A DNA stretch of 64,000 bases from a virus, in IMG/VR virus record IMGVR_UViG_3300026290_000001; one strand, written 5' to 3'. Position 1 is the stretch's first letter, and each line of letters starts with the position of its first letter. Made by a program: the position numbers and the translations under genes. Of this stretch, positions 2,873-26,731 are shown in pieces. The notes under the pieces were generated by a model. The model saw only the letters and a list, made by a program, of their open reading frames with translations. It was not told the DNA's origin and did no database searches.

Positions 2873-2892
2873 ATGTAACCTCCCTCTACCCT

Positions 2893-3609
2893 CTACTTCT
2901 TCAATTCTTTAAGTAAATATTCAACGGCATTATCAATTAAAACAGCACATTCTATTCGTGTAATACTACTATTAGGATCTAAAATCCCATCGCCTTTACC
3001 AGAAAGTATTTTCTTCTCATATAATCTATCTGCACTTTTTGCTCCCCAATGATCTTTAGGCAAGTCTTTAAAATACTTTGACATTTCTTCAATCACCTTA
3101 CCTTTCAACAATTCCTTCTGAACTTCATTTTTAAATTTATCCCATGTCCAACCTAAATGACCTGCTCTTATTAAACGTGGACAATTTTTTCCATTCCAAT
3201 CCCAATGCTGTCTTAATGATTCTACATTTTTATTTTTAGATTTTAATAATTCTGCCACAAGTAAAACTGCATTTTCTAATGTTTTTTGGTAATTCCCACT
3301 TTCACATATTTCAATTCCTATACTACGTCTATTACCAGCACCACTTCCTCCATCTCCTGCGTGCCAAGCATTTTCAAATAAAGGAATACATTCAATTGCT
3401 TGTTTTTCATCAATGGCAATATGATAACCTGTAGAAGATGTATTTGAAGGATTGGTTAAATAATCTCTTTCATTTCTTGCAGTAGATTTTGAATTCCCTG
3501 TGTTGTGAATAGTAATATATTCCCAATCCATTTTATATTTTGGACGTTTATTAGAATTCATAGGAATGTGATCTATTACATAAGGAAAAGGTAAATTAAA
3601 TTTACTCAT
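2893..3609 (-). CDS. endolysin: N-acetylmuramoyl-L-alanine amidase (amidase_2/PGRP-like) with C-terminal SLH domain
   Basis: Catalytic region HNTGN..YHIAID..WHAGDGG..SIGIE typical of amidase_2; C-terminus FKDLPKDHWGAKSADRLYEKKILSGKGDGILDPNSSITRIECAVLI matches S-layer homology (SLH) motif. Confidence 0.75.
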   Translation of the reverse strand: MSKFNLPFPYVIDHIPMNSNKRPKYKMDWEYITIHNTGNSKSTARNERDYLTNPSNTSSTGYHIAIDEKQAIECIPLFENAWHAGDGGSGAGNRRSIGIEICESGNYQKTLENAVLLVAELLKSKNKNVESLRQHWDWNGKNCPRLIRAGHLGWTWDKFKNEVQKELLKGKVIEEMSKYFKDLPKDHWGAKSADRLYEKKILSGKGDGILDPNSSITRIECAVLIDNAVEYLLKELKK

Positions 3610-6117: not shown

Positions 6118-6385
6118 AGAATACCTCCTTTTATTTAGTTGTTACTGAAGGTTCATAGTCTACTGCGAAGTAACTTCTTAATACACATTTGCGAAGTCAG
6201 AAAACTTTTTAACCAATATCAAACAACCCCGACAATTTCTCTAACTTTTTCCCTATACATATTAGGCACAAAATCAATTATAATTCGCCCACTTTCTACT
6301 GCATATACCCACATTCCTAATATAGCTTCACTCATATCATTCATCTCCTTTTAGATTAAACAATTCGGTTCTTAACATATCGATT

Positions 6386-6616
6386 TCAGCCATCATCAAA
6401 GTGAGTAGAAGTGCTATTCCTTCTGCATCTTCGTTGAAAGCCAACTTCGATATAGTCATTCTTGTTGAACACTTGCTCATCATATTCCCAACCACTAAAC
6501 CCCTTCATGGCGTCAATATCTTCTTCCTCAATTCGCACTATATTCGTCCGAACATAGACTGTATCAGCATTCACTTCAATGGGCTTAACTGTTTCCTGTG
6601 TCCCTCTTATTCTCAC
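6386..6616 (-). CDS. hypothetical protein
   Basis: 76-aa ORF between fibre gene and recombinase in compositionally distinct (higher GC) block. Confidence 0.25.
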   Translation of the reverse strand: MRIRGTQETVKPIEVNADTVYVRTNIVRIEEEDIDAMKGFSGWEYDEQVFNKNDYIEVGFQRRCRRNSTSTHFDDG

Positions 6617-6691
6617 GCTTTATCACCTCTTTATAGTATTTTCCTTGATAGGCTTCTATTCGACCCATTCGACCAATTACCACTGTTATTA

Positions 6692-7843
6692 TTAAAAATA
6701 CACGAGGCGAGCGCCGATAACCGAATACTTTTCAGACTCCGAATAACCCACATGCAGCCGAAACGCCCCCGCCTTATCCGCAGCCGACCAATCACCACCG
6801 AAACGCGGCAAGCGCGAAACATTCAGAACCGCGGAATCGGGATAATGCGTGCTTTCGCTTCCGTTTGCTGTTTTGACGATAAAACCCGTTTCCGTACCAC
6901 CTTGTATGTCGTCTATGTAACCGACTATATTCGTTGTCGCACCCTGTCCGTAATTTGTATATCCAGAACCAATATCGTTAAAACTTTCATTGCCGATTAG
7001 GATGTTTCGGTCTGCATCACTAAATAATCCGTCAATCCAATAGTAAATATTACCCCAAAAATCTTCTATGCCACAAAATTTTAATTGTTGTTTTCCTGTA
7101 GTTTCACCATAGAACATACCTTTAGCATTTGTAGCACCCGTATTAACTTTGGCACTATTCCCATCGACATAACCTCTGCCTAAAGCAGTTTGCCAATCCC
7201 TACTCTTAAACATCACCGTACCTAAGACTTGCAACATTAAAAGTTGAAAATAAGCCATTTGGTCATAACCACTGCCATTCGCCTGTGCAATAGTTCTAAA
7301 TGCACCGATAGTTTCATAAGCGGTTGTTATTTTTCCGCTTAAACTTCTTAATTTAGAACCGTCAGAATATCCTAAATAAGCTGAAATGTAACACTTGGCT
7401 TTTTCGGTTGTACCCCTCATATGTGCTAAACATTTATACCCACTATCTACCTTTGCATTAGCATATCTTACATACAAGTCAGTCCCAATGGTTTCAAATT
7501 TCCACCAAATCTTAGGAAATTCAATCATTACGTCACCATCTGCACCACTTGTAATGTCTGCATTTGTCCCGTCAATTTTTTTAGTATAATCGTTTGGATT
7601 TAGATAGTATTGCACCACTCCATTTTTAAGTAAACATGGTTTAATCTGATTAAATGGAAACTTGTCTTGCCAACTACCATAAGAAAAATTGCCATTATTT
7701 CCTTGGGCTGGAGTAAAACCTATTGCATTATCTGTATAGGCTAAAGCAGTTTCGGGGTTGCTATTTGTAGTATCAATTTTGATGCCATATATTTTAGGTG
7801 GTGATTTTACTGGTTTTCTTTTCCTAATTAATGCCTCACCCAT
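6692..7843 (-). CDS. tail fibre protein, distal part; 3' third is GC-rich
   Basis: 383 aa, Gly/Asn/Thr-rich, contiguous with upstream fibre ORF; 3' segment about 6700-6960 has markedly higher GC than the genome. Confidence 0.5.
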   Translation of the reverse strand: MGEALIRKRKPVKSPPKIYGIKIDTTNSNPETALAYTDNAIGFTPAQGNNGNFSYGSWQDKFPFNQIKPCLLKNGVVQYYLNPNDYTKKIDGTNADITSGADGDVMIEFPKIWWKFETIGTDLYVRYANAKVDSGYKCLAHMRGTTEKAKCYISAYLGYSDGSKLRSLSGKITTAYETIGAFRTIAQANGSGYDQMAYFQLLMLQVLGTVMFKSRDWQTALGRGYVDGNSAKVNTGATNAKGMFYGETTGKQQLKFCGIEDFWGNIYYWIDGLFSDADRNILIGNESFNDIGSGYTNYGQGATTNIVGYIDDIQGGTETGFIVKTANGSESTHYPDSAVLNVSRLPRFGGDWSAADKAGAFRLHVGYSESEKYSVIGARLVYF

Positions 7844-8686
7844 TTACCTCACCACCTTTAGCTGAATTGGCAAACTAACTTCAGGTTTATCCATCGCATA
7901 TAATGTTATAGAATTATTAGCAGTTGTTACACGATAAATTTTACCCCACTCATTTACTCGTTCTTTATCTGTAGCAAATGTGCCACTCATTACTACGTCA
8001 ACTATAGGATTGTCATTTGACGATATTCCAGTTACCGTTTGCGTTTTCGTATATGGGGCTTCTGTACCTGTCCAAGTAGTATCAAGTGTTGTCGTAAGCG
8101 TAGCGTGATATACGTGTCCTAATTTACTTATTGTCGCACCATCTGCCAGATGGTTAGCAAACTTTTTCCCAACCCCACTAACCAAAGGTCTTTTATCGAC
8201 AATTATATTTACAGTTTTATCCGCATTTGTACTAATAGTACCAATTAATAGACTTCCATCTGTAATTGTTCCATCTATACTACTAGCAAAATTTCCATCA
8301 TTTTTAAGATATATAGTATAGGTTATACTGGCCGATACTGGATTAATAGTAAAAGTTGTATCAGATGTTTTAGTTATAGTATTTATTGTATTTCCACTAA
8401 ATGTTTCACCAGTACCACTAGCAATAACTATACTTAATGTATCTGTACCACTCGTATAAAATGCAGATTTTATTCTAAATGGACTATCCAATTCTAATGA
8501 ATTTAATAAAAATCTCGCATCTTTCCATGTTGCTCCTAAATCTCTAGGATCAGTACCACCTAAAGTAACATTTGCATCATCAGCAACATGGATAATATCT
8601 AAACCACTATATTTATTTCTAATTTCTGCTACTTGCTCATCTGTATGTATAGCAAATACTTTGCTATTTTTAATTACACAAATCAT
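7844..8686 (-). CDS. tail fibre protein (shares a module with 8706-10469)
   Basis: Segment TFTINPVSASITYTIYLKNDGNF...LLIGTISTNADKTVNIIVDKRPLVSGVG is paralogous to a region of the upstream gene. Confidence 0.5.
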   Translation of the reverse strand: MICVIKNSKVFAIHTDEQVAEIRNKYSGLDIIHVADDANVTLGGTDPRDLGATWKDARFLLNSLELDSPFRIKSAFYTSGTDTLSIVIASGTGETFSGNTINTITKTSDTTFTINPVSASITYTIYLKNDGNFASSIDGTITDGSLLIGTISTNADKTVNIIVDKRPLVSGVGKKFANHLADGATISKLGHVYHATLTTTLDTTWTGTEAPYTKTQTVTGISSNDNPIVDVVMSGTFATDKERVNEWGKIYRVTTANNSITLYAMDKPEVSLPIQLKVVR

Positions 8687-12942: not shown

Positions 12943-13104
12943 AATTTATCACCTCCAACCTAATTTTTCAAAAAATAGAAAAATCAAAAATGTTCAAAAA
13001 TTTATCTTCTGTTTTCTCTTGTTTTCTTCCATTTACTCTGTTTTTCAAGCACAAAATTTGAATAAAAGGAATATTTTATTGTTGAGCCAAGAACACTCGT
13101 GACT

Positions 13105-14397
13105 TCAGTCATGAGATGAATTGGCTCTGTTCTGTTCATATATAATCCATGATTTTCTTGCATTAATTCTTTGCATGTTAGATATTTTCGGTGTCTTCAT
13201 ACCTCTGGGTGCATTACTAAAATCTATTTTTTCACCATCTATACCCATAAGAATGGCATAACCCGTAGACATTCTACCTTTAATAAAATATTCATTACCT
13301 ATATACCTTACTTTATCAAACTTCCTAAATCCTTCTATTTTACCTGTAGGTATCTTCTGATGACTTCTTACTCCTTTTGCCTGTTGGTAATCGCCTTTAG
13401 GGATACACTTTTTTAATACAGCTTTTTCAGTTTTAAAGCTTACATCAATTAACCCTATATCTTCAATATTATTTAAACAGGCAATAGCTACAGCATCGTA
13501 GTAATGCTCTTTTGGTAATCCCATTAGCTGTCTATGTTCTTTGGTAATAAATCCAAAGGTTTCTTTTGCATTTGGTAGCTGTCTTAATAATTGTTGTCTT
13601 ATACTATTCATCTGTGTTGTGTGTTTTAATTGTCCTTTAATTTTACCATTCTTCTTTAATTTAATTCCTCCTTTGTGCAAACTATTATGACAAGTTTTAC
13701 AAAGTGTAATTAAATTTTCTGCATCATCTGAGCCACCATTTTTTCTAAAAACTATATGATGTACCTCTAATCTGCTGTCTTTACTTTTTCCTTTGCAATA
13801 CTGGCAAATATATTTATCTCTACTTAATACATAAGCTTTAGTATTAGCAAATCCATAATTAGTTCCTTTTTGATAAAGCCATTTATTACTTAATACTGCT
13901 GGATTTTTTAAAGCATGTGGGTCAAATGTTGCTGTTTCTATTATTATATTTGTAATGGGCATTATTGATTTTGCAAAATCAATTTCTTTTAAGTGTGAAT
14001 TAATTTTACTTGTCATTGTAGGAGAAAATCTATCTTTTTTAATGCTGTTTTTCCTATTATTAAATCTAGGTTCCCTATATCTAGTTTTCCTATTCCTTCT
14101 AGTTCTCCTATATTTAGCTCTTTTGTCCATTTTGTCAGATATATCATTTCTAATTTCTACTTCTGATATATAATACACTTCATTTTCGTCATTTGCTACT
14201 GCACTTCCTATTTTACTACTACCAGTATCAATTCCTAAAGTTAAATCTTGTGTATAGTCTGTAGCATGATATAGTAATTTAATTGTAAATGGAGTTCTTC
14301 TTATGCATTTTGCTTTACCATCTTTTAACAATAATCTTGCTATTGCTGGTTTACAAGGCATTAAAGGACTCCCATCTTCATTAATTACATAAACCAT
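13105..14397 (-). CDS. iscB: IscB, OMEGA-family RNA-guided nuclease (PLMP domain, split RuvC, HNH)
   Basis: N-terminus VYVINEDGSPLMPCKPAIARLLLKDGKAKCIRRTPFTIKL (PLMP domain); RuvC-I LGIDTGSSKIGSAV; Arg-rich bridge helix RRTRRNRKTRYREPRFNNRK; RuvC-II ETATFD; HNH CQYCKGKS...LEVHHIVFRKNGGSDDAENLITLCKTCHNSLH; RuvC-III HYYDAVAIA; domain order exactly as in described IscB proteins. Confidence 0.85.
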   Translation of the reverse strand: MVYVINEDGSPLMPCKPAIARLLLKDGKAKCIRRTPFTIKLLYHATDYTQDLTLGIDTGSSKIGSAVANDENEVYYISEVEIRNDISDKMDKRAKYRRTRRNRKTRYREPRFNNRKNSIKKDRFSPTMTSKINSHLKEIDFAKSIMPITNIIIETATFDPHALKNPAVLSNKWLYQKGTNYGFANTKAYVLSRDKYICQYCKGKSKDSRLEVHHIVFRKNGGSDDAENLITLCKTCHNSLHKGGIKLKKNGKIKGQLKHTTQMNSIRQQLLRQLPNAKETFGFITKEHRQLMGLPKEHYYDAVAIACLNNIEDIGLIDVSFKTEKAVLKKCIPKGDYQQAKGVRSHQKIPTGKIEGFRKFDKVRYIGNEYFIKGRMSTGYAILMGIDGEKIDFSNAPRGMKTPKISNMQRINARKSWIIYEQNRANSSHD

Positions 14398-14681
14398 AAA
14401 ATCAAATCCTTTCGGATAAATACTCTGCTTAAAAGCAGGTTATGCGTATCTATATACTATTACCATATATAGAATTCGTCCTCATCTCGACAATGATAAA
14501 ATAGCTTATATGTATATCACACCGAGCCTTACCCTCCAACTCTACTTAGTGATATACGATAGAGCAATGGTCTGATGCGTCAACCAAAGGTATCATAACT
14601 ATTCTATCGTAGTATAAATTTCTCTATACTAAGTCTGGTGAACTTAGACTTTAGAAGCCTCCGACTTTAGTCGGGGGTAGT
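14398..14681 (-). ncRNA. candidate omega RNA of IscB (structured 5' region; guide expected at the high-coordinate end)
   Basis: 284-bp non-coding gap directly upstream of iscB with higher GC than surroundings and several stems readable by eye (CCTCCGACT/AGTCGGGGG, TACGATAGAG/CTATTCTATCGTA, AGTCT..AGACT, CTGCTT..AAGCAG). Confidence 0.45.
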
Positions 14682-14927
14682 TCACTCTATTTCAGGATTG
14701 ATAGATAAATCATCTTTGCTTGTACTATTTACATTAGATAAATTATCTTCATTGGACAAATCATCATTAATAATTTGACTTAATTCGTCTATTTTAGAAC
14801 TTAATTTGATAATCTCTATCTGATACATATTATTTTGTAAACATAAAGTGACTACATCTAAGGGCAAATTACTATTGTTTATTAACTCTGCCAGTTTAAT
14901 ATTAAAATCACTTATAATAAAAATCAC
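14682..14927 (-). CDS. hypothetical protein
   Basis: 81-aa ORF upstream of IscB locus. Confidence 0.25.
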   Translation of the reverse strand: MIFIISDFNIKLAELINNSNLPLDVVTLCLQNNMYQIEIIKLSSKIDELSQIINDDLSNEDNLSNVNSTSKDDLSINPEIE

Positions 14928-16262: not shown

Positions 16263-16391
16263 AAAATCACCTAAATTTCTTTATAATTGAATAAATTATT
16301 TAAAAAAGAATAATAATAATTAATAAGCAAAATAGTTAAATAGTATTGTAAAAAATTAGATAATATGATAGTATAAATATATATTATTAAA

Positions 16392-16991
16392 ATGAAAGGA
16401 TGTATAATAATGAAAATTAAAAACTTATCTTATCTGTTTATTGGTTTGCTAGTTGGGTGTTTATTTCCCATTCAATCTTTATTTGCCGAACAACCTATTA
16501 CATTAATTATCAATGGTAAAACAATTACTAATGCTTCACCACAAATAGTTTCAGATAGAACGTATGTACCTTTGAGGGTAATATCCGAAGAATTAGGTGC
16601 AACAGTTGAATGGGACGGAGTAAATAGGGTAGTTAGGGTTAATAGTGGGGATGGACAAAAAATTGAAAAGATTAATCAAAATCAAACTCAAAACAATAAT
16701 GATAATAGTAATGTGGAGAGCAACCCTAGAGATAATATCAATTATATTAGTAGTGATGATATGGAAAAATATTACGAAAGAGATACAAATAAAGGTTTTG
16801 TAAAAAATCGTTGGGTAGATGGTAAATATTTTATTGACTATGATAGAAAAATTACACGTTTTGAAGATTATGAATATTATTATGATAGAGAAAGAGATAT
16901 ATTTTATTGGGCAGATTATAAGGCAATTTTAATCTTTGGAGAAACAATAAAAGATTATCCTAAATATAAATTTAACCAAATACAGCAGTAG
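16392..16991 (+). CDS. secreted lipoprotein with copper-amine-oxidase-N-terminal-like domain (moron, opposite strand); true start probably 16410
   Basis: Signal peptide with lipobox LLVGC; motif DRTYVPLRVISEELGATVEWDGVNRVVRV typical of Cu_amine_oxidN1 domains of Firmicutes; only plus-strand gene within minus-strand tail operon. Confidence 0.55.
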   Translation: MKGCIIMKIKNLSYLFIGLLVGCLFPIQSLFAEQPITLIINGKTITNASPQIVSDRTYVPLRVISEELGATVEWDGVNRVVRVNSGDGQKIEKINQNQTQNNNDNSNVESNPRDNINYISSDDMEKYYERDTNKGFVKNRWVDGKYFIDYDRKITRFEDYEYYYDRERDIFYWADYKAILIFGETIKDYPKYKFNQIQQ

Positions 16992-19845
16992 AAGAAATAG
17001 CATCTCCTTCAACTAAAACTCTTTTTGCTCCATACCAACTACTACCAACATAAACTTCATCACCTAATAAAACTTGATTAGCACTTATTTGTAAATGTGG
17101 ATAAGTAGAACCACCTGCTGAAATAATAACATTATGACCAGAAGTAGTGTACATTAAAATTTCTTTATTACTACTATTTTTTCCACCTATTTGCAAAGAA
17201 TTAAATGCAGTAAAATCTCCAGCAGTTATTTGATTAGCATATATTTTACCAGTAATAACATAATCTTTTCCTAATTGTGTAGTTAAGGCAGTATTAGTAA
17301 CATAGTTTGCTAAATCACCAGAATATACTAAATCTGTTGGTTTATCTATCACTTTGCCCCATGCTATATAAGCATTCGGACCCATTTGAATATTGTCACC
17401 AACAATTAACTCATTAACTTTTAGTTTATTTGCACCAACACTACCATTGGACAAATAATTACCATTGATTTTATTTAAAGAATCCAATACATTAGTACCT
17501 GCAATTTTTAAACTCGAACAATCTATATTACCTTGAATATCTGCTGATGTTGCCACTAAGTGACCTGAAAGGGAAACCCTGAAGGGTGCATAATTATAGT
17601 TACTACTACCTAAATATATTCCATTCGTGTCGGCTTTAAATATGGCATTACCCGATCCTATCTGCATATGTCCTTTTAATATTAAATTACCATCAATGTC
17701 AGCATATAATTTTTTGTTCCATTGAGAACCTTCATATTTTTCAATAGTGAATCCATCTGTTGCGTTAGATATGGAACGTACTTTATTGTCTGAACGGGTA
17801 ATTGTTAGTCCATCTGTTATATCTATTTTTACACCATTATAGAGTTTATTTTCTAAGAGTACTCCTTCTGCTAATTCTGAAACTGGTAATCCACCATCCG
17901 TTATTTGTAGGGAAAGACCTGAAATTTTTACTCCCGTTTCATTGACGGTGAAGAATTTTTTACCTTCGTTGTTTGATGCGTCTATTATGAGGTTTTGACC
18001 AATTAATAAAGTACCTAAAATTCTTTCTGCTACAATCCGATCTGGCAAAATCGCAGTATGAAATGTATTACCTCCATCTTGGGTAAGAGTAATTACACCA
18101 TGCATCATACGAATAAATTTATCAGAATCGTTCGGATCTATAATACTGATGCCTCTTCTATCAGTAATTACCGTCTCATTACCACAAGCAATTACTGCTT
18201 GTTTAGTAGCATCCCATGCATTATTTATAATTTTCTGTACTTCATTATTAGCATTTTCACCCAATGACCATTTATATTTTTCCATATCAACAGTAGTAGA
18301 TGTGCTCACTGCTTGATTTATTCTCTTTAAAAACAAATCATAATCACGATTAATATTTTCAATATTACTAATTACAAGATTGACACTATTTTCTTCAAAA
18401 TCAAAATCCATTTCAATAATTTTTGCCATAATGCTAATATCAAAAGTTTCATGGTCAATTCTAACCAAATCACCTAAAATCAATTTACCTTTATCTAATT
18501 GACAATCTTCATCTAAATATTGATCAATATTTATCGAATCTATCTCTATTAATATTTGTGGTGTATTTATTTTTACAAACTGTTCTTTACCCCAAGATAA
18601 TAATTCTTTAGCATCAAAGATGTATTGATTTTCAACAGTTTTTACAACTATATAATCAGTAAGTTCAAATAATTCAGATTGAGTAAAATTACTTTCCATA
18701 CGCAATGTGTCACCAAGAGAAATTATATTAGATTGTACAGAATTTATTTGTGATTGTTTATTACTAATTTCAGTGTTTTTATTATTTATTTCATTTTGTT
18801 TGGCAGATTGTTGTGCTAATAAATCATAAGCACTTTGACCCTTAGATTGTGCCAAATCTATATTGTCTTGAATTATTATTAATTCAGATTGTAGTGTAAT
18901 TAATTGACTATTTAAAATTATTAGTTCTGCTTCATATGTTTCTAATTGAGATAAATAACCTTGATATATACCATCATTATCTTGTAATTTTTTATTATAA
19001 GCCAATAAAGCATGACATAATTCATTGGACATATAATGACTACTTTGAATTACATTGCCTTGCTCATCTTCTGTATATGGATAAAGAAAATATCCAAAGT
19101 TATCTAAATAGTCAGTACCAGTTATATTGTATTCATTTATACTTAATCCCGATTTGCCATAAATTTTTAAACGAGTGCAAAAATCTGAATCATCCAAAGA
19201 TTGATTTAGTGATTTCAAATAGATACCATAATTAAAATTTAAACCAGTGTAGTTTCCGATTTGGTCTAATTTATAAAAACTTATCTTTTTATTTTCAGTA
19301 TCCCATTTAATAATTGCACTAAATGTTTCTGAAACTGTAAATATTGCATCTAGTACCGTAGCAGAAGTAATTTCTAACATGCGAAATTTAGTGTCGAACT
19401 CTGAATTCACGTACCCCAAAGACCATGTAGTTTCCTTTAACAAATCGGTCATTATTTGTGATAATGTTTTGGATTCAACTTTATATCCTCTAATTAAATT
19501 ATCTTTTAATTTAAAGGGGAGAGAAAAACATTCCACTTGAAACGAATCTATATCTTCACCCATATTTTGAATTGGTTTTTGTATAATAAACCATTCAATT
19601 TTATTATTATATTCAAATTTTATTAGGTATTTATAACGAATCATATTAAGATGTTTGTTATAAACTAATTCGTTCTCTATTTCAATATATAAAGGAAGAT
19701 CAAACGATAATTCTGAAATATTACCAAGTTTACAGTTATATTGTATATTAAATGCCTGATTAGATAAATCTGCAATAATATTTCTATCAGGTTTTGTAAG
19801 ATATAGTTTTGGTTTTTGTAGTAAGTCTATTATAAATATCACCAC
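16972..19845 (-). CDS. tail-associated lysin/minor structural protein (Tal-like)
   Basis: 957 aa, directly downstream of Dit-like gene after tape measure; central coiled-coil and C-terminal repetitive beta-rich region. Confidence 0.55.
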   Translation of the reverse strand: MVIFIIDLLQKPKLYLTKPDRNIIADLSNQAFNIQYNCKLGNISELSFDLPLYIEIENELVYNKHLNMIRYKYLIKFEYNNKIEWFIIQKPIQNMGEDIDSFQVECFSLPFKLKDNLIRGYKVESKTLSQIMTDLLKETTWSLGYVNSEFDTKFRMLEITSATVLDAIFTVSETFSAIIKWDTENKKISFYKLDQIGNYTGLNFNYGIYLKSLNQSLDDSDFCTRLKIYGKSGLSINEYNITGTDYLDNFGYFLYPYTEDEQGNVIQSSHYMSNELCHALLAYNKKLQDNDGIYQGYLSQLETYEAELIILNSQLITLQSELIIIQDNIDLAQSKGQSAYDLLAQQSAKQNEINNKNTEISNKQSQINSVQSNIISLGDTLRMESNFTQSELFELTDYIVVKTVENQYIFDAKELLSWGKEQFVKINTPQILIEIDSINIDQYLDEDCQLDKGKLILGDLVRIDHETFDISIMAKIIEMDFDFEENSVNLVISNIENINRDYDLFLKRINQAVSTSTTVDMEKYKWSLGENANNEVQKIINNAWDATKQAVIACGNETVITDRRGISIIDPNDSDKFIRMMHGVITLTQDGGNTFHTAILPDRIVAERILGTLLIGQNLIIDASNNEGKKFFTVNETGVKISGLSLQITDGGLPVSELAEGVLLENKLYNGVKIDITDGLTITRSDNKVRSISNATDGFTIEKYEGSQWNKKLYADIDGNLILKGHMQIGSGNAIFKADTNGIYLGSSNYNYAPFRVSLSGHLVATSADIQGNIDCSSLKIAGTNVLDSLNKINGNYLSNGSVGANKLKVNELIVGDNIQMGPNAYIAWGKVIDKPTDLVYSGDLANYVTNTALTTQLGKDYVITGKIYANQITAGDFTAFNSLQIGGKNSSNKEILMYTTSGHNVIISAGGSTYPHLQISANQVLLGDEVYVGSSWYGAKRVLVEGDAISSTAVFG

Positions 19846-19864: not shown

Positions 19865-20638
19865 CTAATAAAATCTGAATTCATATTTCATGTCCAAAAA
19901 ACACTTGCCATCAACCTTTAGTCTATTTTTACCATAAGGCAAACTCATATAATAATTATTTATAAGTTTGTCATATCTATAAATAGGTGGAGGTGTGCTT
20001 TCTAACGAACTTTCTATATTTCTTCTCTTACAATCGATTTGTACAATTTCATTATCTTCTAATTCTGAAAATCCAAATTCTTTACCGTTAGATAAATTTA
20101 AAATAGATACTTTACCTTTTTCTAGTTTTTTAATTGTTATTATAGGTAAAACATCCACATCTCCTAAATTATTAAATACAAAATGATTAGTACTTTCTTT
20201 GCTAAAATCATAAGATTCTAAATAGATATGCGAATGTGCATAAGAACTCTTACATCTAAATTGACAAGTTATATAACCTTGATTTATACCATTATGAGAT
20301 ATTTGTGGATCAGAAATTAAAATACAATAATAAATTTTATCAGGATTTTCCGAAAAACGCATTTTAGCATAATATGGTTTTCTTAACCATCGTTTAACCC
20401 TTTGTAAAGATTCTTCCGTCCATCCCTTTTTAAAAGCAAAAACTAAATCCAGTATTAAAGGTTTTGGTTTAACTTCTTGAAAATAAGGTTCATTTCTACC
20501 ACGTATTTCAGTTTCAATTATTTCTACTTCTGCTACAAAAGGTTCTTCTGTCATTCCAGAAGAAAGATTACAATTTATAATATCGTAATCATATGAATAT
20601 TCATTATCAAATTCAAAATACGCAGAATCTTTTATCAT
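19865..20638 (-). CDS. distal tail protein (Dit-like)
   Basis: 257 aa, position between tape measure and Tal, conserved order in siphoviruses. Confidence 0.45.
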   Translation of the reverse strand: MIKDSAYFEFDNEYSYDYDIINCNLSSGMTEEPFVAEVEIIETEIRGRNEPYFQEVKPKPLILDLVFAFKKGWTEESLQRVKRWLRKPYYAKMRFSENPDKIYYCILISDPQISHNGINQGYITCQFRCKSSYAHSHIYLESYDFSKESTNHFVFNNLGDVDVLPIITIKKLEKGKVSILNLSNGKEFGFSELEDNEIVQIDCKRRNIESSLESTPPPIYRYDKLINNYYMSLPYGKNRLKVDGKCFLDMKYEFRFY

Positions 20639-20654
20639 TGCTGTTCACCACCTT

Positions 20655-20687
20655 AAAACAAAACAGAAGGGGAGTAGATACCCCTTC
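20655..20687 (-). terminator. intrinsic terminator-like hairpin after tape measure gene
   Basis: GC-rich stem GAAGGGG..CCCCTTC followed on minus strand by TGTTTTGTTTT. Confidence 0.45.
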
Positions 20688-23600
20688 TATTTACCAAGTT
20701 TACTCATTCCATTATTTATCCGTTTAAAGAAACCATCAACACCTTTTTCTGTGTTTTCTACTTTATCTATATGAACATTCATATTATAAGTTACGTTACC
20801 TCCACCAGCAAACTGTAATTGTGGAGTTGCATTGGCAATTAATTTTTGCATATTAGGAATTAGATATCTTTCAATATTTTTTGGTGGAATTAAAATTTCA
20901 TTTGTTAGTGCTTTGATTATATGTTCATTGGCACTGGTATTGAAAAATTTATTAAATTTATCAACAAAACCAAATGATTTATCTCCGACTATACCACCTT
21001 CATGATATATCCTAATTTGTCTTTTCTTTTCATCCCATTCTACTTGATGACCTAATGCTTCTGCAACTTCCCTGATAGAAAGATATGTTGTTCCGTCAAC
21101 ATTTTTAGCTGGTTTAAATCTCTTTCCACCAATTATAATTGTCTGGTTTTGTCCATAACCTTCCCAATCAGCAGATGCTCCTAAAAGTGATGCAAGAAGT
21201 CTAGATTGCATAATTGCTCTATTATTGACAAGTTCAAAAGAACCAGAATCCAATACTGCCATAGGTTGTCTACCAGATGTGTTAGAACTAGGATTAGTAC
21301 TTTCCAAAGAGGGAATAGACATATTCGCACTATTTGCACTTTCTAATAATGCTAATGCCTGTTCCATTTTTGTAATTAAATTAGCACTAATACTATTACC
21401 AATAAACTCTAAATTGCCATTTACAAAAGTTTTAAATTCTGCAAAAGCTGATTTAACTTTATCAATATTACCATTTATAATATCAGAACGAATTTGGGCA
21501 AACTTTTGTTCGTCATTAATTAAATCGTCATAGTGTTTTTCGGTTTCTCTTTTAATTCTATCCAACCTATCTTTTTCTAAGTTAAGTTTAGTATCTTCTG
21601 CTTTTTTCTTTGCATCAATATCTTTTTTATAAGCATCTAATTGGTCTTTAAGATTTTCTTTACGTAAATCAATTGAATGGTCATGTTGATATTCATTAAT
21701 TTCATCCTCTTGTTCTGCCAATTGTTTTATTAATTCTGCTTTTTTTGCTTTTGCTTCAAAAGAATCATCTAATGATAAAACGTCAATATTTTTTTGAGTT
21801 TCTAATATTGCTTTTTGTTTCTTTTCCAATTCACGATTATAATCATGCTCATTTTCTTCTCTATCTAGTGCTTTGATTCGTGCATTGATGTAATCTTCAA
21901 ATTGTTTTAATTCATCATCAAGATTATCAGTTGCTTGTTTATGACGTTTTTCTTCTGCTTTCATTTGTTCATCTATGGCATCTAATGCAACTTGTTTTTG
22001 TTTTTCATAGATATTTTTATAGATAGAGATGATTTCGTCTGCTATGGATGCTAGTTGTTGTTTGATAGAGAATTGGAGATTGATATATTCTTGCTTTAGT
22101 TGTTTTAAAGTATTTATCAATTCTTGTTTTTGGTCAGCATTGTATCTATCACTTGCTAATTCCTGTTGAACTAATGCTATTTTATTTCTTAAAATATTAA
22201 CACTTTCAATATTAATTTGATTTTCTCGTTCTAATAATGCAATATATTCAGCAGACCCTTTTTCTAATAAAGACATTTCATTTCTAAGGTTTTCTTTTTC
22301 TTGAGTTAAATCAGATAGTTTAATATCTTCAATTGATAAATTAATTTTAAATTCAGCAAAACTCAAATCTCTTATTTCATCATCTATACCTTGAATTTCT
22401 TTTTTAAGACCTTCTGCACTATCTTTGAGTTTTTTAAAATCTTCAATCGCTTTTGCAATTTTTTCATTCTTTATATCAACTTCAATTGTATCTGTTGAAC
22501 CAGACATTATTTTGTTAAAGTCAGATTCAGACAACCCTTTTCCAATATAAGACCGTAGATTCTGTTCTGCTTGTTTTAGACTTGAATCAAAAGTGTTATT
22601 TATATCTAAAAGCAGGTTTTGTTTTTTTTGTAATAAAAGTATCATTTGGTCATATATTTCTGTTTTTTGTTCAAAAGAAGTTACATCGTCAAGTTGATCT
22701 TTAAAAGTTTCTATTTCTCTGTTAATTGCTTCGAGTGCTTCTTTCCAAACTTCAAAGGTTTTGGTAAAGGATTTGGAGGATTTAGAGGAAGAACCATATC
22801 TATCTAAAGAACTAGATACATTAAGATTTTTAAACTTAGATGCCATATCTCTAGTGGCTTTTTGAAATTCAGCATAATCTTTAAGCATCTGGTTTGTTTT
22901 AGAATCAACAGCTAAAGCACTACCGCTTTCAATACGTCTAAAATCACCCATACTCGAAGGATTTACTAATAGCGTACCTGCATTAAAAGCATCAAAATAT
23001 TTCGCCCATTCAGAACCTAATTTGCTTATTAATTGCAATTCAATTGCTTCTCTTGCTTGAGCTAAATTTGCCCATTGAGTTACATTATTGCCATATAATT
23101 TTGATAAATGATTAAATAATTCAGCATGGTTATTTTTAACACTGTTATAGAAATTAATATCTTGTTCTTTAGTTTTTATAAAGGCATCATAAATTGCATT
23201 TTGGTAATCTTCTGTGTCTTTGACAAGTTGTTGTCTTAATTTGGACTCATCTTCAAGTAGAGGAATATAATCTTGATAATCAGATATTATTTTTTCTATT
23301 GAAGATTGAGTAAGACCTTTGTCAGATAATTCATCAAGAAAACCTTTTAGGTCTTTTATTTTAGATACATTGTCTTTGTAAGTGGTTTGAAAATCGGAGA
23401 GAGCTTTTTCATATTGATTTAAAGTATTAATCGCATTTTTTGAATCAATAGTAGAAGGATATAGTGATGCAAAATTAATAGCAAATTCTTTTAAATCGGG
23501 ATTACCTTTAGTTAATGTATTAATTAAATTAGTTATTTCCTTAGATGTTTTTGATAATCCATCTCTATTTTTCTTAGAATCATCGCCACTATTAATAGCA

Positions 23601-26600
23601 GAAGTTAATTTATTATATTGTTCAATTAAAGAATCTAAATCAGAATTAGCAACTTTAGTAGCAAAATCACTTAATGCTTGTTGTTGAGTTTCTATATCTT
23701 CGGGTTGTAAAGCAAGTGATTTAGCAAATTCGGAAACAACTAATTTGGCAGAATCAGACATTTCCTTACCATTAGATTCTAAAGTTTTAATGGTTTCTTG
23801 CGCTTCGTATTCTAAATATTTTTGTTTGTTTTTAGAAAGATTATATATTTCTTCTTGTTGTCTTTGATATATATCTTTCCAATCTTCTAATTTTCTGAGG
23901 TTATACCATTCAGTTCCTTTATTATTATCAATCATTAATTGATATTCTTCTATACGTTTTTCTGCGGTGTCTCTGAGGTTAATTGCTTTTTTAATTTCTT
24001 TATTAGTTTGTTTATCTGATGCTTTAACTTTAAATTCTAATAATTCCTGTTCTTTTTTTAATTCTTCATCTAAAGCCAAAATTCTTAGTTTAATTACTTC
24101 TATAGAATCAGAATAAGCTTCTCCTTCAAGATTAATACCAGTAGCAGATACACCATATTTATCAACAAGTTCTTTTTGAATTTCTAATAATCGTTTCTTT
24201 TCTTCGGTAGTTGCGGTAAGATTTTTCTCTTTATCTTTAAGAGTTTCATATTCAGAAGTTAATTCTTTTAACCCCTCTTTTTGTTGTTTTAAATTTTGTA
24301 TTTGATTTTGACTTGTTTCTATTTGTTTTTGTTGTTCTTCTCTATGTTTTTTAGTAGCATTAGTGAGTCCATAAATAGCAACCATTGCAGTTGTTGCAAC
24401 AACTGCCAATAATCCTAATGGATTTGTTGCCATCGTTGCTTTTAAAAAATTCATTGCAGCAGTAAGTCCTTGTGTTGTTGTCAATAATGCTAAAAGGGAA
24501 ATATTGGCAGCATTAGTAGTAGTAATGAATGCGATCATTGCTTTTATACTAGAAGTAATAGCAGTTCCTTTCCAAATTAAAAAAGCCGTAGTTAAAAGTG
24601 CTACAACAACTTCTGCATTTCCAAGAACTTCAACTAAAGTTGTCATAGCAATTACAAAACCTTTAATTACGTCAGAATTTAATGCTTCTTGCCATTTCCC
24701 CATTACTGTGTTTTTGAATTGTGCAGATTTTGCCTCAATTGATTCCATATACTTTTCGTTTTCAATTAAAGCAGAATTTGTCGAATTTAAGGCAGTAGTT
24801 AGAGAGTCCTGCATATCCTTGTAATTAGTCATCATAGCCATTACTATGTTTCCTTGTCTTTTTCCTGCGACAAGTTCCGACATATTAGCCCTCTGTACGT
24901 CTGTAAGTTTTTCCCAAACTAAGGCTAATTCTAACATAATGTCATAGGTGGATTTAAAGGTATTTTCATCTTTGCGAATTTGAATACCAATATTTTTAAA
25001 TGATTCTTCAAGTTTAGGAAGATATTCTAAAACATCTTCACCATCTTCGGATACACCTCTAAGTCTCATTGAAATTGTTTTGAGGGCTGTTCCTACGGTT
25101 GCTGGGTCTTGTACCACTGCGTTAGCAGCAGTTATCAATGCAACTGCTTCTTCCATTGTATTGCCAGCAGAATATAATGAAGCAGCAGATCTACGCATAG
25201 CTTCACCAATACCTGCACTTGAAATTGCAAAATTATTTCCAACTTCATTATAAATATCTACAATTTTCTGTATATTTCTACCTTCTTCATCTACTGCAAC
25301 ACCAAAACCTTTTACTGCTGAAATAATTGCTAGACTAGCTTCTTCTACTCCAATATCACCTACATTAGAATATAATAATGCTTGTTTTGCTAATTGAGCA
25401 GATTGTTCAAGGGAATAACCCAAACGGGCAAACTCTGTCGTACTATTAATAACTTCCACACTAGTTTTTGCCAAATTTCGACCTATAGCATTTGCCTCAA
25501 GTGAAAATTTATTTAATGTTTCTCTAGTTTCGTCAGTAACTTTATTCAAATTTGTGAGAGCAGTATCTATGTCGATGATACTTTGAATACCATTTTTTAC
25601 TGCTGTTATTGTTTTGATTATTACATCACCGATGAGCAACCAACTAGCGAATTTCTTGCCCGCTTCAAGTAAACTTTGTCCAAAAAGTCCAGTATATTTA
25701 TTAGCATCTTGAATTTCTTTCTTATAAATACTTGTGGTAGTAGAAATTTCTCTAAGTTTAGAATTGGCTTCTGCCATATTCTTACTGAAATTTTTATTAG
25801 TTGGATCAAAACCACGTATTTGAGATTCAAGAGTATTTAAAGCACTTAAATTATCACCAACAATAAACTTTCCATCTACACCTCTCATGCCCCTGATTCT
25901 ATTTAATAAATCTTGTTGAGCAAGAGATTGTTTATGTATTTCACTTGTTAACTTTTGCTGTTGAATAATATCTTTATCAATATTTTTTGCTTTTATTGTA
26001 CCAACATTCCGTAATGTTTGTTCTCTAATTTTTTCAAGTTGAATTAATTTTTCAGCTTCTATTCCTTCTATTTTGGTTTTTTCACCAATGTCAATTTTTC
26101 TTCTAATAATATTATTATATTGACCTTGATGATAGGTTATTTGTTTAGTTAATTCTTTTGCCTGTTCTGTATCTTTATTTCCTAAACTATGATAATCTTG
26201 TCTTAATTTATTTAATTGTGTTAAATGCTGTTTGGCTTCATTAAAATTTTTATTTTGTGTATTTTTAATAGTTTCTAAATTAGTTTTTTCAAGATTATCA
26301 TAATAATCTGCCATTTTAACCAGTTCATCTGGTTTCTTTGTCATATCACCTACAGTTTCTTTAACTCTCTGTGACCAATATTTGGACTGTTCTTTATTTA
26401 ATTTTTCTAACTCTGTACGTTGTTTTTTATAATTAATAGTAGTTTCTGTTACTTTTTTATATACTTCGTCTGTTCCTGCTTTTAAATGTTCAATTTGTTT
26501 TACACTCTCACCATTTGCTTTTGTCCACTCTTTAGTTCTTTCAGTAATTTTTGCTTCAGCATTTTCAATTTGTACATATTTTTCTTTATACTTGTCTAAA

Positions 26601-26731
26601 CCCTTACTATCAACATCAATTTTTATTTTAGGATTAACTCGTTGTTCAATATCTTTTTTTACTTTATTTAGTTCTGATTCTGATGCTCTATCTAATAACG
26701 TTTTTATTCGGATTACAATATCATCTGCCAC
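20687..26731 (-). CDS. tail tape measure protein
   Basis: 2014 aa, long coiled-coil regions, hydrophobic TM-like cluster in middle, C-terminal Cu_amine_oxidN1-like stretch (TYLSIREVAEALGHQVEWDEKKRQIRIY). Confidence 0.8.
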   Translation of the reverse strand: MADDIVIRIKTLLDRASESELNKVKKDIEQRVNPKIKIDVDSKGLDKYKEKYVQIENAEAKITERTKEWTKANGESVKQIEHLKAGTDEVYKKVTETTINYKKQRTELEKLNKEQSKYWSQRVKETVGDMTKKPDELVKMADYYDNLEKTNLETIKNTQNKNFNEAKQHLTQLNKLRQDYHSLGNKDTEQAKELTKQITYHQGQYNNIIRRKIDIGEKTKIEGIEAEKLIQLEKIREQTLRNVGTIKAKNIDKDIIQQQKLTSEIHKQSLAQQDLLNRIRGMRGVDGKFIVGDNLSALNTLESQIRGFDPTNKNFSKNMAEANSKLREISTTTSIYKKEIQDANKYTGLFGQSLLEAGKKFASWLLIGDVIIKTITAVKNGIQSIIDIDTALTNLNKVTDETRETLNKFSLEANAIGRNLAKTSVEVINSTTEFARLGYSLEQSAQLAKQALLYSNVGDIGVEEASLAIISAVKGFGVAVDEEGRNIQKIVDIYNEVGNNFAISSAGIGEAMRRSAASLYSAGNTMEEAVALITAANAVVQDPATVGTALKTISMRLRGVSEDGEDVLEYLPKLEESFKNIGIQIRKDENTFKSTYDIMLELALVWEKLTDVQRANMSELVAGKRQGNIVMAMMTNYKDMQDSLTTALNSTNSALIENEKYMESIEAKSAQFKNTVMGKWQEALNSDVIKGFVIAMTTLVEVLGNAEVVVALLTTAFLIWKGTAITSSIKAMIAFITTTNAANISLLALLTTTQGLTAAMNFLKATMATNPLGLLAVVATTAMVAIYGLTNATKKHREEQQKQIETSQNQIQNLKQQKEGLKELTSEYETLKDKEKNLTATTEEKKRLLEIQKELVDKYGVSATGINLEGEAYSDSIEVIKLRILALDEELKKEQELLEFKVKASDKQTNKEIKKAINLRDTAEKRIEEYQLMIDNNKGTEWYNLRKLEDWKDIYQRQQEEIYNLSKNKQKYLEYEAQETIKTLESNGKEMSDSAKLVVSEFAKSLALQPEDIETQQQALSDFATKVANSDLDSLIEQYNKLTSAINSGDDSKKNRDGLSKTSKEITNLINTLTKGNPDLKEFAINFASLYPSTIDSKNAINTLNQYEKALSDFQTTYKDNVSKIKDLKGFLDELSDKGLTQSSIEKIISDYQDYIPLLEDESKLRQQLVKDTEDYQNAIYDAFIKTKEQDINFYNSVKNNHAELFNHLSKLYGNNVTQWANLAQAREAIELQLISKLGSEWAKYFDAFNAGTLLVNPSSMGDFRRIESGSALAVDSKTNQMLKDYAEFQKATRDMASKFKNLNVSSSLDRYGSSSKSSKSFTKTFEVWKEALEAINREIETFKDQLDDVTSFEQKTEIYDQMILLLQKKQNLLLDINNTFDSSLKQAEQNLRSYIGKGLSESDFNKIMSGSTDTIEVDIKNEKIAKAIEDFKKLKDSAEGLKKEIQGIDDEIRDLSFAEFKINLSIEDIKLSDLTQEKENLRNEMSLLEKGSAEYIALLERENQINIESVNILRNKIALVQQELASDRYNADQKQELINTLKQLKQEYINLQFSIKQQLASIADEIISIYKNIYEKQKQVALDAIDEQMKAEEKRHKQATDNLDDELKQFEDYINARIKALDREENEHDYNRELEKKQKAILETQKNIDVLSLDDSFEAKAKKAELIKQLAEQEDEINEYQHDHSIDLRKENLKDQLDAYKKDIDAKKKAEDTKLNLEKDRLDRIKRETEKHYDDLINDEQKFAQIRSDIINGNIDKVKSAFAEFKTFVNGNLEFIGNSISANLITKMEQALALLESANSANMSIPSLESTNPSSNTSGRQPMAVLDSGSFELVNNRAIMQSRLLASLLGASADWEGYGQNQTIIIGGKRFKPAKNVDGTTYLSIREVAEALGHQVEWDEKKRQIRIYHEGGIVGDKSFGFVDKFNKFFNTSANEHIIKALTNEILIPPKNIERYLIPNMQKLIANATPQLQFAGGGNVTYNMNVHIDKVENTEKGVDGFFKRINNGMSKLGK

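What the first reader, a model, noticed from the sequence alone, without database searches (positions are those of the whole stretch)
16392..16991. Opposite-strand lipoprotein moron in the tail operon sharing a domain with the tape measure protein
This is the only plus-strand gene inside a long minus-strand structural operon. It encodes a lipobox-bearing secreted protein with a Cu-amine-oxidase-N-like domain (TYVPLRVISEELGATVEWDG), and a similar stretch occurs near the C-terminus of the tape measure protein. This is a candidate superinfection-exclusion or cell-surface-modifying moron expressed from a prophage.
Basis: partly seen in the sequence, partly recalled or inferred. Interest (0 to 1): 0.4.

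Follow-up and report, generated by a model that had tools for sequence, protein, structure and literature searches.

The report
Secreted phage protein beside tail-tip gene
A large phage of an anaerobic Gram-positive bacterium carries, backwards inside its tail genes, a real gene for an exported protein with a conserved front half and a swappable back half; similar genes sit next to the tail-tip gene in many other phages and may block rival phages, which is untested.

Summary
ORF 16392..16991(+) is a real gene under purifying selection (dN/dS 0.24). Its start is more likely 16410 (193 aa). It is the only credible plus-strand gene between about 2.5 and 60.6 kb. It has a signal peptide, one Cu_amine_oxidN1 ("stalk") half-repeat (Pfam E 1e-14), an N/Q-rich linker and an orphan Tyr-rich C-domain. 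The tape measure protein has two such half-repeats near its C-terminus.

Corrections:
- The lipobox matches formally, but its Cys is missing in 6 of 17 close homologs, while a signal-peptidase-I-type site is kept in 16 of 17.
- The tape measure similarity is generic. The stalk is closer to those of other phages' counterparts than to its own phage's tape measure.
- Prophage status is not shown.

New findings:
- Close relatives keep a near-identical N-module and carry unrelated C-domains, with sharp recombination breakpoints.
- The variable block also includes the C-terminus of the convergent tail-tip (Tal) gene.
- In IMG/VR, 15 of 45 related loci, with GC from 25 to 62%, show the same arrangement of Tal and a convergent secreted stalk protein.

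Superinfection exclusion is the best guess (about 0.35-0.4), by positional analogy with Llp/Cor and architectural analogy with CwpV. It is untested.

The parts
16263..16409 (.). AT-rich (12% GC) divergent intergenic region between the 308-aa tail gene (start 16262, minus strand) and the + gene. It holds sigma-70-like hexamers and an SD-like AAAGGA at 16395-16400.
   Evidence: Promoter-like sites are no more frequent than in shuffled sequence (17 found against 22 expected), so a promoter is inferred and not shown. Relatives have three different upstream classes, each with its own -35/-10-like pair and SD.
16410..16991 (+).
16410..16487 (+). Signal peptide (residues 1-26): MKIK, a hydrophobic core, a formal lipobox LLVG-C17, then P-IQSLFA|EQ.
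   Evidence: Hydropathy. Conservation: Cys in 11 of 17, the A|E/D/Q/S site in 16 of 17.
16488..16649 (+). Single Cu_amine_oxidN1 half-repeat (residues 27-80; four short strands, a helix and two strands).
   Evidence: Pfam. AF2 of this segment gives pLDDT 83. Best PDB fold match is the PaSOD N-terminal dimerisation domain 8IMD, E 6e-3, TM 0.39-0.52. The coding DNA is nearly identical in relatives, dS 0-0.14.
16650..16721 (+). N/Q-rich low-complexity linker (residues 81-104). The left recombination breakpoint of the variable block lies at 16636-16681.
16722..16988 (+). Orphan, Tyr-rich (24% aromatic), predicted beta-rich C-terminal domain (residues 105-193). This is the swappable module.
   Evidence: Only P0002, P0006, P0033 and weakly P0007 are related. 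Pfam gives only Choline_bind_2 at E 0.059, below threshold. The AF2 model is poor, pLDDT 45.
16972..19845 (-). Tail-tip protein Tal (YomG_N plus Prophage_tail). It converges on the + gene and overlaps it by 20 nt (16972-16991). Its C-terminal 64-172 aa (16972 to about 17164-17489) are hypervariable and end in the conserved AVFG.
21008..21292 (-). Two stalk half-repeats near the C-terminus of the tape measure protein (residues 1814-1858, degenerate, and 1861-1908).
   Evidence: About 90% conserved in the tape measure of related locus L009, which is 72% identical overall in that region.
20687..26731 (-). Tape measure protein gene (2014 aa). No lytic domain was detected.

Best explanation
What is shown:
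- Gene 16410..16991(+) encodes a Sec-exported protein of about 167 mature residues. Its parts are a signal peptide, one stalk (Cu_amine_oxidN1) half-repeat, a flexible N/Q-rich linker and a small variable C-terminal head.
- It lies tail-to-tail with the tail-tip gene Tal, antisense to the late tail operon.
- It belongs to a recurrent family with the same build and position in many Firmicutes phages.
- The N-module is a conserved, recently exchanged homology arm. The head, together with the adjoining Tal C-terminus, is swapped by recombination.

What is inferred:
- The gene is transcribed from its own promoter, independently of late genes, either in a lysogen or early in infection.
- The signal is cut by signal peptidase I, or the protein is lipid-anchored in the Cys-bearing variants.
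- The stalk half-repeat dimerises or holds the protein at the membrane-wall interface.
- The linker presents the head at the cell surface, where it interferes with the tail tip, the tape measure or the receptor of incoming related phages. That would be superinfection exclusion, or protection of progeny from adsorbing to debris.
For: Gene reality and architecture.

Extra gene and mobile unit:
- It is absent after Tal in KKP_3916 and Sundance.
- The whole unit, from -35 nt to +3 nt, is found at 82.6% identity in another context.

Modularity:
- N-modules are 88-97% identical while heads are unrelated.
- Breakpoints lie at 16636-16681 and 17164-17489.
- Stalk dS is 0-0.14, against 0.10-0.68 in adjacent Tal.

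Recurrent synteny:
- 15 of 45 IMG/VR loci (14 non-redundant; GC 25-62%) have a 160-225 aa signal-plus-stalk protein on the opposite strand, convergent with Tal.
- 8 of 10 of the large convergent neighbours are Pfam Prophage_tail.
- None of the 27 genomic or 13 metagenomic distant loci has Tal nearby.

Envelope location of the domain:
- PF07833 proteins were found in the D. reducens surfaceome and are often part of wall hydrolases (PMC4137172).
- Lysis enzymes of L085, L077, L080 and L074 end in the same half-repeat.
- Secreted PaSOD is not released into the medium, and its PF07833-type domain homodimerises (PMC10432803).
- One family member has an SH3_3 head.

Precedents:
- Exclusion proteins are encoded directly beside tail-tip and receptor-binding genes in T5 and other coliphages (PMC9586334).
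- CwpV has an N-terminal wall anchor and a variable C-terminal domain that blocks siphophage DNA entry (PMC4737114).

Weak linkage of head type and Tal C-terminus: 4 of 5 head-related pairs also share the Tal C-terminus, Fisher p 0.005.
Against: - No functional data exist, and there is no hit to any PADLOC defence model or to the Ltp family in Pfam.
- Head and Tal C-terminus are not coupled one-to-one. There are 29 pairs with related Tal C-termini and unrelated heads. L057/L058 and L058/L059 break the linkage, and the pairs are not phylogenetically independent.
- The same head types occur away from Tal (L055, L006).
- Promoter-like sites are not above chance and no terminator was found.
- Gene GC (28.4%) equals the genome's (28.7%), so there is no compositional sign of a moron.
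- The one direct test of a copper-amine-oxidase-N-domain probe for cell binding was negative (preprint 10.64898/2026.09.23.753664).
- A lysogenic lifestyle is not shown.
Confidence: 0.4

Rival explanations
1. Lysogenic-conversion surface protein with a benefit to the host unrelated to phages, for example adhesion, wall remodelling or nutrient capture. The variable head would then reflect different ligands in different niches.
For: The exported stalk-plus-linker-plus-head build is the same as in many ordinary bacterial stalk proteins. Heads include generic wall- or ligand-binding folds such as SH3_3 and a weak DUF4352 match. Heads are not strictly tied to the Tal type.
Against: This does not explain why the gene sits convergent with Tal in 15 of 45 viral loci from hosts of 25-62% GC, yet never near Tal in the bacterial loci. 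It also does not explain why the variable block includes the Tal C-terminus.
Confidence: 0.2
2. Lytic-cycle helper rather than a lysogen-expressed gene. It would be made during infection and coat the wall or receptor so that progeny are not lost on debris (as proposed for T5 Llp), or it would modulate the neighbouring lysis cassette.
For: In smaller relatives the gene lies between Tal and the lysis enzymes (L079, L080, L085). T5 Llp is a lytic conversion protein encoded beside the receptor-binding gene. Contigs of the window phage look like free, permuted genomes.
Against: Orientation against the late operon means late transcription would collide with it. There is no evidence on timing.
Confidence: 0.15
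3. One reading: a true lipoprotein that blocks DNA injection by pairing its stalk half-repeat with the homologous half-repeats at the tape measure C-terminus. This would be Ltp-like targeting of the tape measure protein.
For: The formal lipobox is present in this phage. The domain is shared with the tape measure protein, and the tape measure repeats are conserved in a relative. PF07833-type half-domains can pair (PaSOD homodimer). Ltp is a lipoprotein tethered outside the membrane that blocks DNA injection; that it targets the tape measure is from Bebeacua et al. 2013, recalled from memory and cited.
Against: The Cys is lost in 6 of 17 close relatives and in most of the wider family. The stalk is no closer to the tape measure than to unrelated proteins. 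In other family members' loci the second stalk carrier found was a lysis enzyme, where one was seen. There is no homology to Ltp.
Confidence: 0.1
4. Spurious or decaying ORF with no function.
For: Its function is unknown, and no terminator or significant promoter was found.
Against: dN/dS is 0.24 in both halves. The protein is identical on 17 contigs from several samples. The Pfam hit is far above threshold. A conserved family with conserved placement exists.
Confidence: 0.02

Closest known systems
T5 Llp and the Cor-type exclusion lipoproteins of coliphages, encoded next to the tail-tip and receptor-binding genes (PMC9586334)
   Same: A small exported protein encoded directly beside the tail-tip gene. 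It is variable between related phages and acts at the cell envelope.
   Different: No sequence similarity. Those are Gram-negative outer-membrane lipoproteins that bind a protein receptor. This protein has a stalk half-repeat, most family members lack a lipobox, the host is Gram-positive, and the function is untested.
Clostridioides difficile CwpV (PMC4737114)
   Same: An N-terminal anchoring module plus a C-terminal domain that differs between types. In CwpV the C-terminal domain blocks siphophage DNA entry without affecting adsorption.
   Different: CwpV is host-encoded, phase-variable and large, is anchored by CWB2 repeats and has tandem-repeat C-termini. This protein is phage-encoded, about 170 residues when mature, and uses a PF07833 half-repeat.
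Ltp of Streptococcus thermophilus phage TP-J34 (PMC3952083)
   Same: A phage-encoded, surface-exposed exclusion protein of a Gram-positive host.
   Different: Ltp is a confirmed lipoprotein encoded in the lysogeny module. There is no Pfam Ltp match here, and the gene lies in the tail module.
HK97 gp15 moron (recalled from memory; cited within PMC4737114)
   Same: A membrane protein with exclusion activity whose effect depends on the tail tube and tape measure region of the incoming phage. That its gene lies among the tail genes is from memory.
   Different: gp15 is an inner-membrane protein of a coliphage. It is unrelated in sequence and has no variable head.
PaSOD N-terminal domain of Paenibacillus lautus, PDB 8IMD (PMC10432803)
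   Same: Signal-peptidase-I-type signal followed by a single PF07833-type unit. It is the best, and only notable, PDB fold match. That domain homodimerises and the protein is not released into the medium.
   Different: PaSOD carries a Cu/Zn superoxide dismutase as its C-terminal domain and is a host enzyme. The structural match is modest (TM 0.39-0.52).

Membership tests
Cu_amine_oxidN1 (PF07833) domain proteins | HMM match above Pfam's gathering score | tested here: met
   54.4 bits against a cutoff of 24.2, E 1.4e-14. The same holds for 17 of 18 family members.
Cu_amine_oxidN1 (PF07833) domain proteins | Full two-repeat domain (108-position model) | tested here: not met
   Only one ordered unit of about 50 aa is present. 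Relatives match either model positions 2-50 or 61-107. The tape measure protein has two units.
Cu_amine_oxidN1 (PF07833) domain proteins | Fold like a solved member | tested here: inconclusive
   The AF2 stalk model has pLDDT 83. The top Foldseek PDB hit is 8IMD, E 6e-3, but with TM 0.39-0.52 and rmsd about 7.7.
Bacterial lipoproteins (Lgt/Lsp substrates) | Lipobox [LVI][ASTVI][GAS]C at the end of the hydrophobic region, Cys within the first 35 residues | tested here: met
   LLVG-C17 fits the PROSITE-type pattern.
Bacterial lipoproteins (Lgt/Lsp substrates) | Invariant Cys across orthologs | tested here: not met
   Cys is present in 11 of 17 and replaced by S or T in P0002, P0010, P0013, P0015, P0016 and P0033. 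The wider family mostly has AFA|A-type signals.
Bacterial lipoproteins (Lgt/Lsp substrates) | Lipid modification demonstrated | not testable with these tools
   Needs labelling or globomycin experiments. SignalP and LipoP were not available.
Phage morons | Extra gene between conserved neighbours, absent from relatives | tested here: met
   Absent after Tal in KKP_3916 and Sundance. The unit is found in two contexts.
Phage morons | Own promoter and terminator | tested here: inconclusive
   Promoter-like hexamers and an SD are present in all three upstream classes but are not above the shuffle expectation. No terminator was found.
Phage morons | Nucleotide composition different from the neighbours | tested here: not met
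   Gene GC is 28.4%, against 28.7% for the window and 28.6% for Tal.
Phage morons | Expressed from the repressed prophage | not testable with these tools
   No expression data, and lysogeny itself is not shown.
Ltp-type superinfection exclusion lipoproteins | Homology to Ltp and location in the lysogeny module | tested here: not met
   The Pfam scan of 18 members returns only PF07833 as a significant hit. The gene lies in the tail module.
Llp/Cor-type exclusion proteins linked to tail-tip genes | Encoded directly beside the tail-tip or receptor-binding gene | tested here: met
   Convergent with Tal and overlapping it by 20 nt here. The same placement is seen in 15 of 45 IMG/VR loci.
Llp/Cor-type exclusion proteins linked to tail-tip genes | Variant type matches the receptor-binding type of the phage | tested here: inconclusive
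   4 both related, 1 head only, 29 Tal only, 137 neither. Fisher p is 0.005, but the pairs are not independent and there are many exceptions.
Llp/Cor-type exclusion proteins linked to tail-tip genes | Blocks the receptor or infection | not testable with these tools
   Needs plating, adsorption and binding experiments.
Known anti-phage defence proteins (PADLOC) | Match to a defence-system model | tested here: not met
   0 of 18 members match.

The most novel reading that the evidence does not exclude
The Tal-adjacent, opposite-strand secreted stalk proteins are the Gram-positive counterpart of the Cor/Llp class. They would be wall- or membrane-tethered dimers whose fast-swapping heads neutralise the tail tip or receptor of related phages. 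The near-identical N-module would serve as a built-in recombination arm that lets phages exchange the exclusion specificity together with the Tal receptor-binding end as one cassette.
Probability: 0.3. Interest if true: 0.65.

Novelty: new variant of a known kind. Interest (0 to 1): 0.45.

Why it matters
Exclusion proteins of Gram-positive phages are known from only a few cases (Ltp, Sie2009), all in lysogeny modules. A widespread family that can be recognised from sequence alone would give a simple genomic marker for candidate exclusion genes in Firmicutes phages. The marker would be a signal peptide plus a single PF07833 half-repeat, placed tail-to-tail with Tal. It would also give a natural set of swapped heads for mapping specificity, and a way to ask whether host-range and exclusion modules are exchanged together. 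If the function turns out to be something else, the conserved placement still needs an explanation. The role of the PF07833 half-repeat in tape measure proteins and endolysins (wall binding or dimerisation) is also open.

Tried and rejected
- Cultured-phage records: DNA and tblastn searches with the ORF, and tblastn with the tape measure C-terminus, found nothing.
- Full-length AF2 model: too poor to use, pLDDT 45, so no fold search of the head was attempted.
- Head domain: an exhaustive HMMER search found only P0033 plus a junk repeat protein, P0034. A profile word search returned only P0006. Pfam gave only a sub-threshold Choline_bind_2 hit.
- My impression that the head contains degenerate stalk repeats, and that several IMG/VR heads share a 'WISLRELxxKYG' motif, was not supported. 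hhalign gave probability 0.1%, and iterative HMM building did not recruit further members.
- Idea that the endolysin of this phage shares the stalk as its wall-binding domain: rejected. It is Amidase_2 plus a single SLH.
- Idea of strict co-variation between head and Tal C-terminus: not upheld.
- Tail-fibre chaperone or virion component: rejected because of the signal peptide and the opposite orientation.
- Host identification: the genome scan gave only distant stalk proteins, best from Syntrophomonas and Tissierellaceae MAGs. That is not informative for a 29% GC phage.

Full report
**1. The observation**

The window is a 29% GC phage genome segment. Essentially all genes from about 2.5 kb to 60.6 kb run on the minus strand. 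ORF 16392..16991(+) is present as described. It is the only credible plus-strand gene in that span. The other + ORFs outside minus-strand genes are 71 aa or shorter and look like junk.

The start is more likely ATG 16410. An SD-like AAAGGA lies nine bases upstream, and every homolog and the public gene calls begin there, giving the 193-aa protein P0001.

Pfam finds Cu_amine_oxidN1 (PF07833) at E 1.4e-14. The neighbours are a tape measure protein (20687..26731-; PhageMin_Tail), a Dit-like protein (19865..20638-) and a tail-tip protein Tal (16972..19845-; YomG_N plus Prophage_tail). This confirms a siphovirus tail module of the SPbeta-like type.

The tape measure protein has PF07833 at residues 1876-1911 (E 1.8e-7). 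BLASTP aligns the ORF's stalk with two adjacent units, 1861-1908 (40% identity) and 1814-1858 (25%). No other protein in the window carries the domain. Against the 82.6%-identical gene copy in L055, dN/dS is 0.24 in both halves, so this is a functional coding gene.

**2. Anatomy of the protein**

- Residues 1-26 are the only hydrophobic segment.
- LLVG-C17 fits the PROSITE-type lipobox. It is followed by nine more residues, LFPIQSLFA, and a signal-peptidase-I-type ...A|EQ site.
- Among 17 family members the Cys is present in 11 and replaced by S or T in 6. Those 6 include the closest full-length ortholog, P0002, and the distant ortholog, P0033. The A|[EDQS] site is kept in 16 of 17.
- Most members of the wider family have plain AFA|A-type signals. 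Export is therefore well supported, while lipidation is at best optional.
- Residues 27-80 form one stalk half-repeat: four short strands, a helix and two strands. AF2 gives pLDDT 83.
- Relatives match either half of the 108-position Pfam model, which shows that these proteins carry one unit of a two-unit domain.
- The best PDB fold match is the N-terminal domain of Paenibacillus lautus PaSOD (8IMD; E 6e-3, TM 0.39-0.52). That domain follows a signal-peptidase-I-type signal, homodimerises, and the protein was not found in the culture medium (PMC10432803).
- Residues 81-104 are an N/Q-rich linker.
- Residues 105-193 are Tyr-rich (24% aromatic) and predicted to be beta-rich. This domain has relatives only within the family and one sub-threshold Pfam hit, Choline_bind_2 at E 0.059.

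**3. A modular family**

The 5.8-billion-protein search returned 17 close relatives. Their first 80 or so residues are mostly 88-97% identical, with a second subtype at about 65%. Their C-terminal halves fall into unrelated sequence types.

At the DNA level the breakpoints are sharp. Identity to the window ends at 16636-16681 in eight loci and resumes inside Tal at 17164-17489. The variable block therefore comprises the head of the + gene and the last 64-172 aa of the convergent Tal. Tal otherwise ends in a conserved AVFG motif that overlaps the + gene's stop by 20 nt.

The stalk coding segment has lower synonymous divergence (dS 0-0.14) than the conserved part of the adjacent Tal (0.10-0.68). 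In L059 and L062 the values are 0.05 and 0.0, against 0.68 and 0.50 for Tal. This fits recent exchange, with the N-module acting as a homology arm.

The whole gene unit, from 35 nt upstream to 3 nt past the stop, also occurs outside the Tal position. In L055, and with another head in L006, it sits next to a 115-aa gene; in L006 that gene adjoins a YomX-like gene, with the portal and terminase genes on the other side. There too it is opposite to its neighbours.

**4. Not a one-off**

A degenerate-pattern scan of IMG/VR with an N-module alignment gave 45 loci.

- Sixteen encode small (160-225 aa) signal-plus-stalk-plus-linker-plus-head proteins lying opposite to the flanking genes.
- Pfam of 10 of the large convergent neighbours Prophage_tail.
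- A Tal HMM finds Tal directly, or one small ORF, downstream and convergent in 15 of the 45 loci (14 non-redundant). These loci span 25-62% GC.
- The Tal HMM finds Tal in none of the 27 GTDB or 13 metagenome loci that carry more distant stalk proteins.
- In the smaller phages the gene sits between Tal and the lysis genes.
- The two nearest cultured relatives by Tal similarity (31-34% identity), Alicyclobacillus phage KKP_3916 and Brevibacillus phage Sundance, have no opposite-strand gene after Tal.

No paper in the searchable library describes this arrangement.

**5. The shared domain with the tape measure protein**

The sharing is real but generic. The window protein's stalk scores 53-74 bits against counterpart proteins of other phages, about 35 bits against its own tape measure protein, and 35-44 bits against endolysin stalks. 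Bacterial stalk proteins reach up to 59% identity, against 40% for the tape measure.

In at least four family loci the other carrier of a stalk half-repeat is a lysis-cassette enzyme (L085 Amidase_2, L077, L080, L074). In this phage the endolysin instead uses Amidase_2 plus a single SLH.

The domain is thus a common module of phage and host proteins that work at the Firmicutes envelope (PMC4137172). What it does there is unsettled. The one structural study shows dimerisation. The one direct binding test of such a domain as a probe was negative (preprint 10.64898/2026.09.23.753664).

**6. Mechanism**

Shown: an exported protein with a conserved N-module and a swappable head; placement antisense to the late operon and tail-to-tail with Tal; recurrence of that placement.

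Inferred: independent transcription. Each of three upstream classes has a -35/-10-like pair and an SD, but such sites are not above chance in this AT-rich DNA, and no terminator was found. Also inferred are retention at the membrane-wall interface, presentation of the head through the linker, and interference with incoming phages.

The precedents are positional and architectural. In T5 and many coliphages the exclusion lipoprotein is encoded directly beside the tail-tip and receptor-binding genes (PMC9586334). C. difficile CwpV combines an N-terminal wall anchor with type-variable C-terminal domains that block siphophage DNA entry (PMC4737114).

I tested one prediction of a cognate-pair model, namely that head type tracks Tal C-terminus type. 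Four of five head-related pairs also share the Tal C-terminus (Fisher p 0.005). However, 29 pairs share the Tal end with unrelated heads, L057/L058/L059 break the linkage, and the pairs are not independent. The result is weak and does not decide the question.

There is no match to PADLOC defence models or to Ltp. I put superinfection exclusion, including the lytic-conversion variant, at about 0.4-0.5 combined. The rivals are a phage-unrelated surface function at 0.2 and the specific lipoprotein-binds-tape-measure model at 0.1.

**7. Lifestyle**

The same protein is on 17 contigs, 11 of them 50-200 kb. In the 135-kb and 138-kb contigs the gene lies at different offsets, about 89 kb and about 14 kb. 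That fits permuted free genomes rather than a prophage with fixed host flanks. No close copy was found in 185,579 species-representative genomes, although that scan depends on exact peptide patterns. Two tyrosine recombinase genes are in the window. Whether the gene is expressed from a prophage cannot be decided here.

**8. Verdict**

The gene is a genuine moron-like insertion encoding an exported stalk-domain protein. The lipoprotein and tape-measure-link elements are weak, and the function is untested. The added value is that it belongs to an undescribed, recurrent family of secreted proteins linked to Tal, with cassette-like head exchange. I rate it a new variant of a known kind, with interest 0.45.

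Noticed in passing
window 13080..14686 (IscB ORF 13105..14397 -, HEARO RNA 14475..14685 -): An IscB-type RNA-guided nuclease gene (Pfam RRXRR E 2e-54 plus HNH) with its full-length HEARO/omega RNA (Rfam RF02033, 121.7 bits, gathering score 83) is inserted in the tail operon, between the 81-aa gene and the YomF-like gene. Related loci L059, L009 and L011 lack it. L059 is contiguous across the site (3698 to 3700), so the insertion is 1,607 bp.
   Followed up: partly
window 20687..26731 (-), residues 1814-1908 = 21008..21292: The 2014-aa tape measure protein has no detectable lytic domain. It carries two stalk half-repeats near its C-terminus, about 90% conserved in the L009 tape measure. tblastn of its last 214 aa finds nothing in 50,697 cultured-phage records.
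   Followed up: partly
window 16972..17489 (-), and L009, L011, L056-L062: Tal proteins of this clade share a conserved body and an invariant C-terminal AVFG. The 64-172 aa before that motif are hypervariable, with several unrelated types.
   Followed up: partly
window 2513..3609 (-): The lysis cassette consists of a holin (Phage_holin_6_1) and an endolysin with Amidase_2 plus a single SLH domain. A 2026 preprint found this atypical single-SLH arrangement to be the functional cell-binding module in Paenibacillus phage endolysins.
   Followed up: no
window 5113..6117 (-) and 59714..60592 (-): There are two tyrosine recombinase genes (Phage_integrase plus SAM-like N-domain), one between the lysis and tail-fibre regions and one at the far end of the minus-strand block. 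It is unresolved whether either is an integrase or a dimer resolvase.
   Followed up: no
window 6001..8000: This stretch has locally higher GC (37.8% against 28.7%) and includes a 574-nt gap (6118..6691) next to the recombinase gene. No credible gene was found in the gap.
   Followed up: no
window 47256..47331 (-): A tRNA-Thr (anticodon TGT) lies inside the minus-strand block.
   Followed up: no
window 51966..53210 (-) and 63200..63670 (+): A protein with a CoiA-like nuclease domain and a RadC-like JAB protein are present. dNMP kinase and 5'-nucleotidase genes lie at 914..2002 (+).
   Followed up: no
L085 3168..4358 (-); L077 2444..3073 (-); L080 2756..3847 (-); L074 1147..1941 (-): In several smaller phages that have the Tal-adjacent stalk gene, a lysis-cassette protein also ends in a single stalk half-repeat (Amidase_2 in L085; the others were not scanned with Pfam). 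The same module is therefore used twice in one phage.
   Followed up: partly
L006 5322..7676: In a relative of the window phage, an IS66-family element (TnpB_IS66 plus DDE_Tnp_IS66) sits next to the terminase and portal genes. Host-like molybdopterin/Fe-S oxidoreductase genes lie beyond it, so this copy may be an integrated or degraded prophage.
   Followed up: no
P0006 (109 aa; contigs of 1.75 kb or less): This variant consists of the window-type head alone (79% identical), without a signal peptide or stalk. It could be a truncated gene call or a decayed copy.
   Followed up: no
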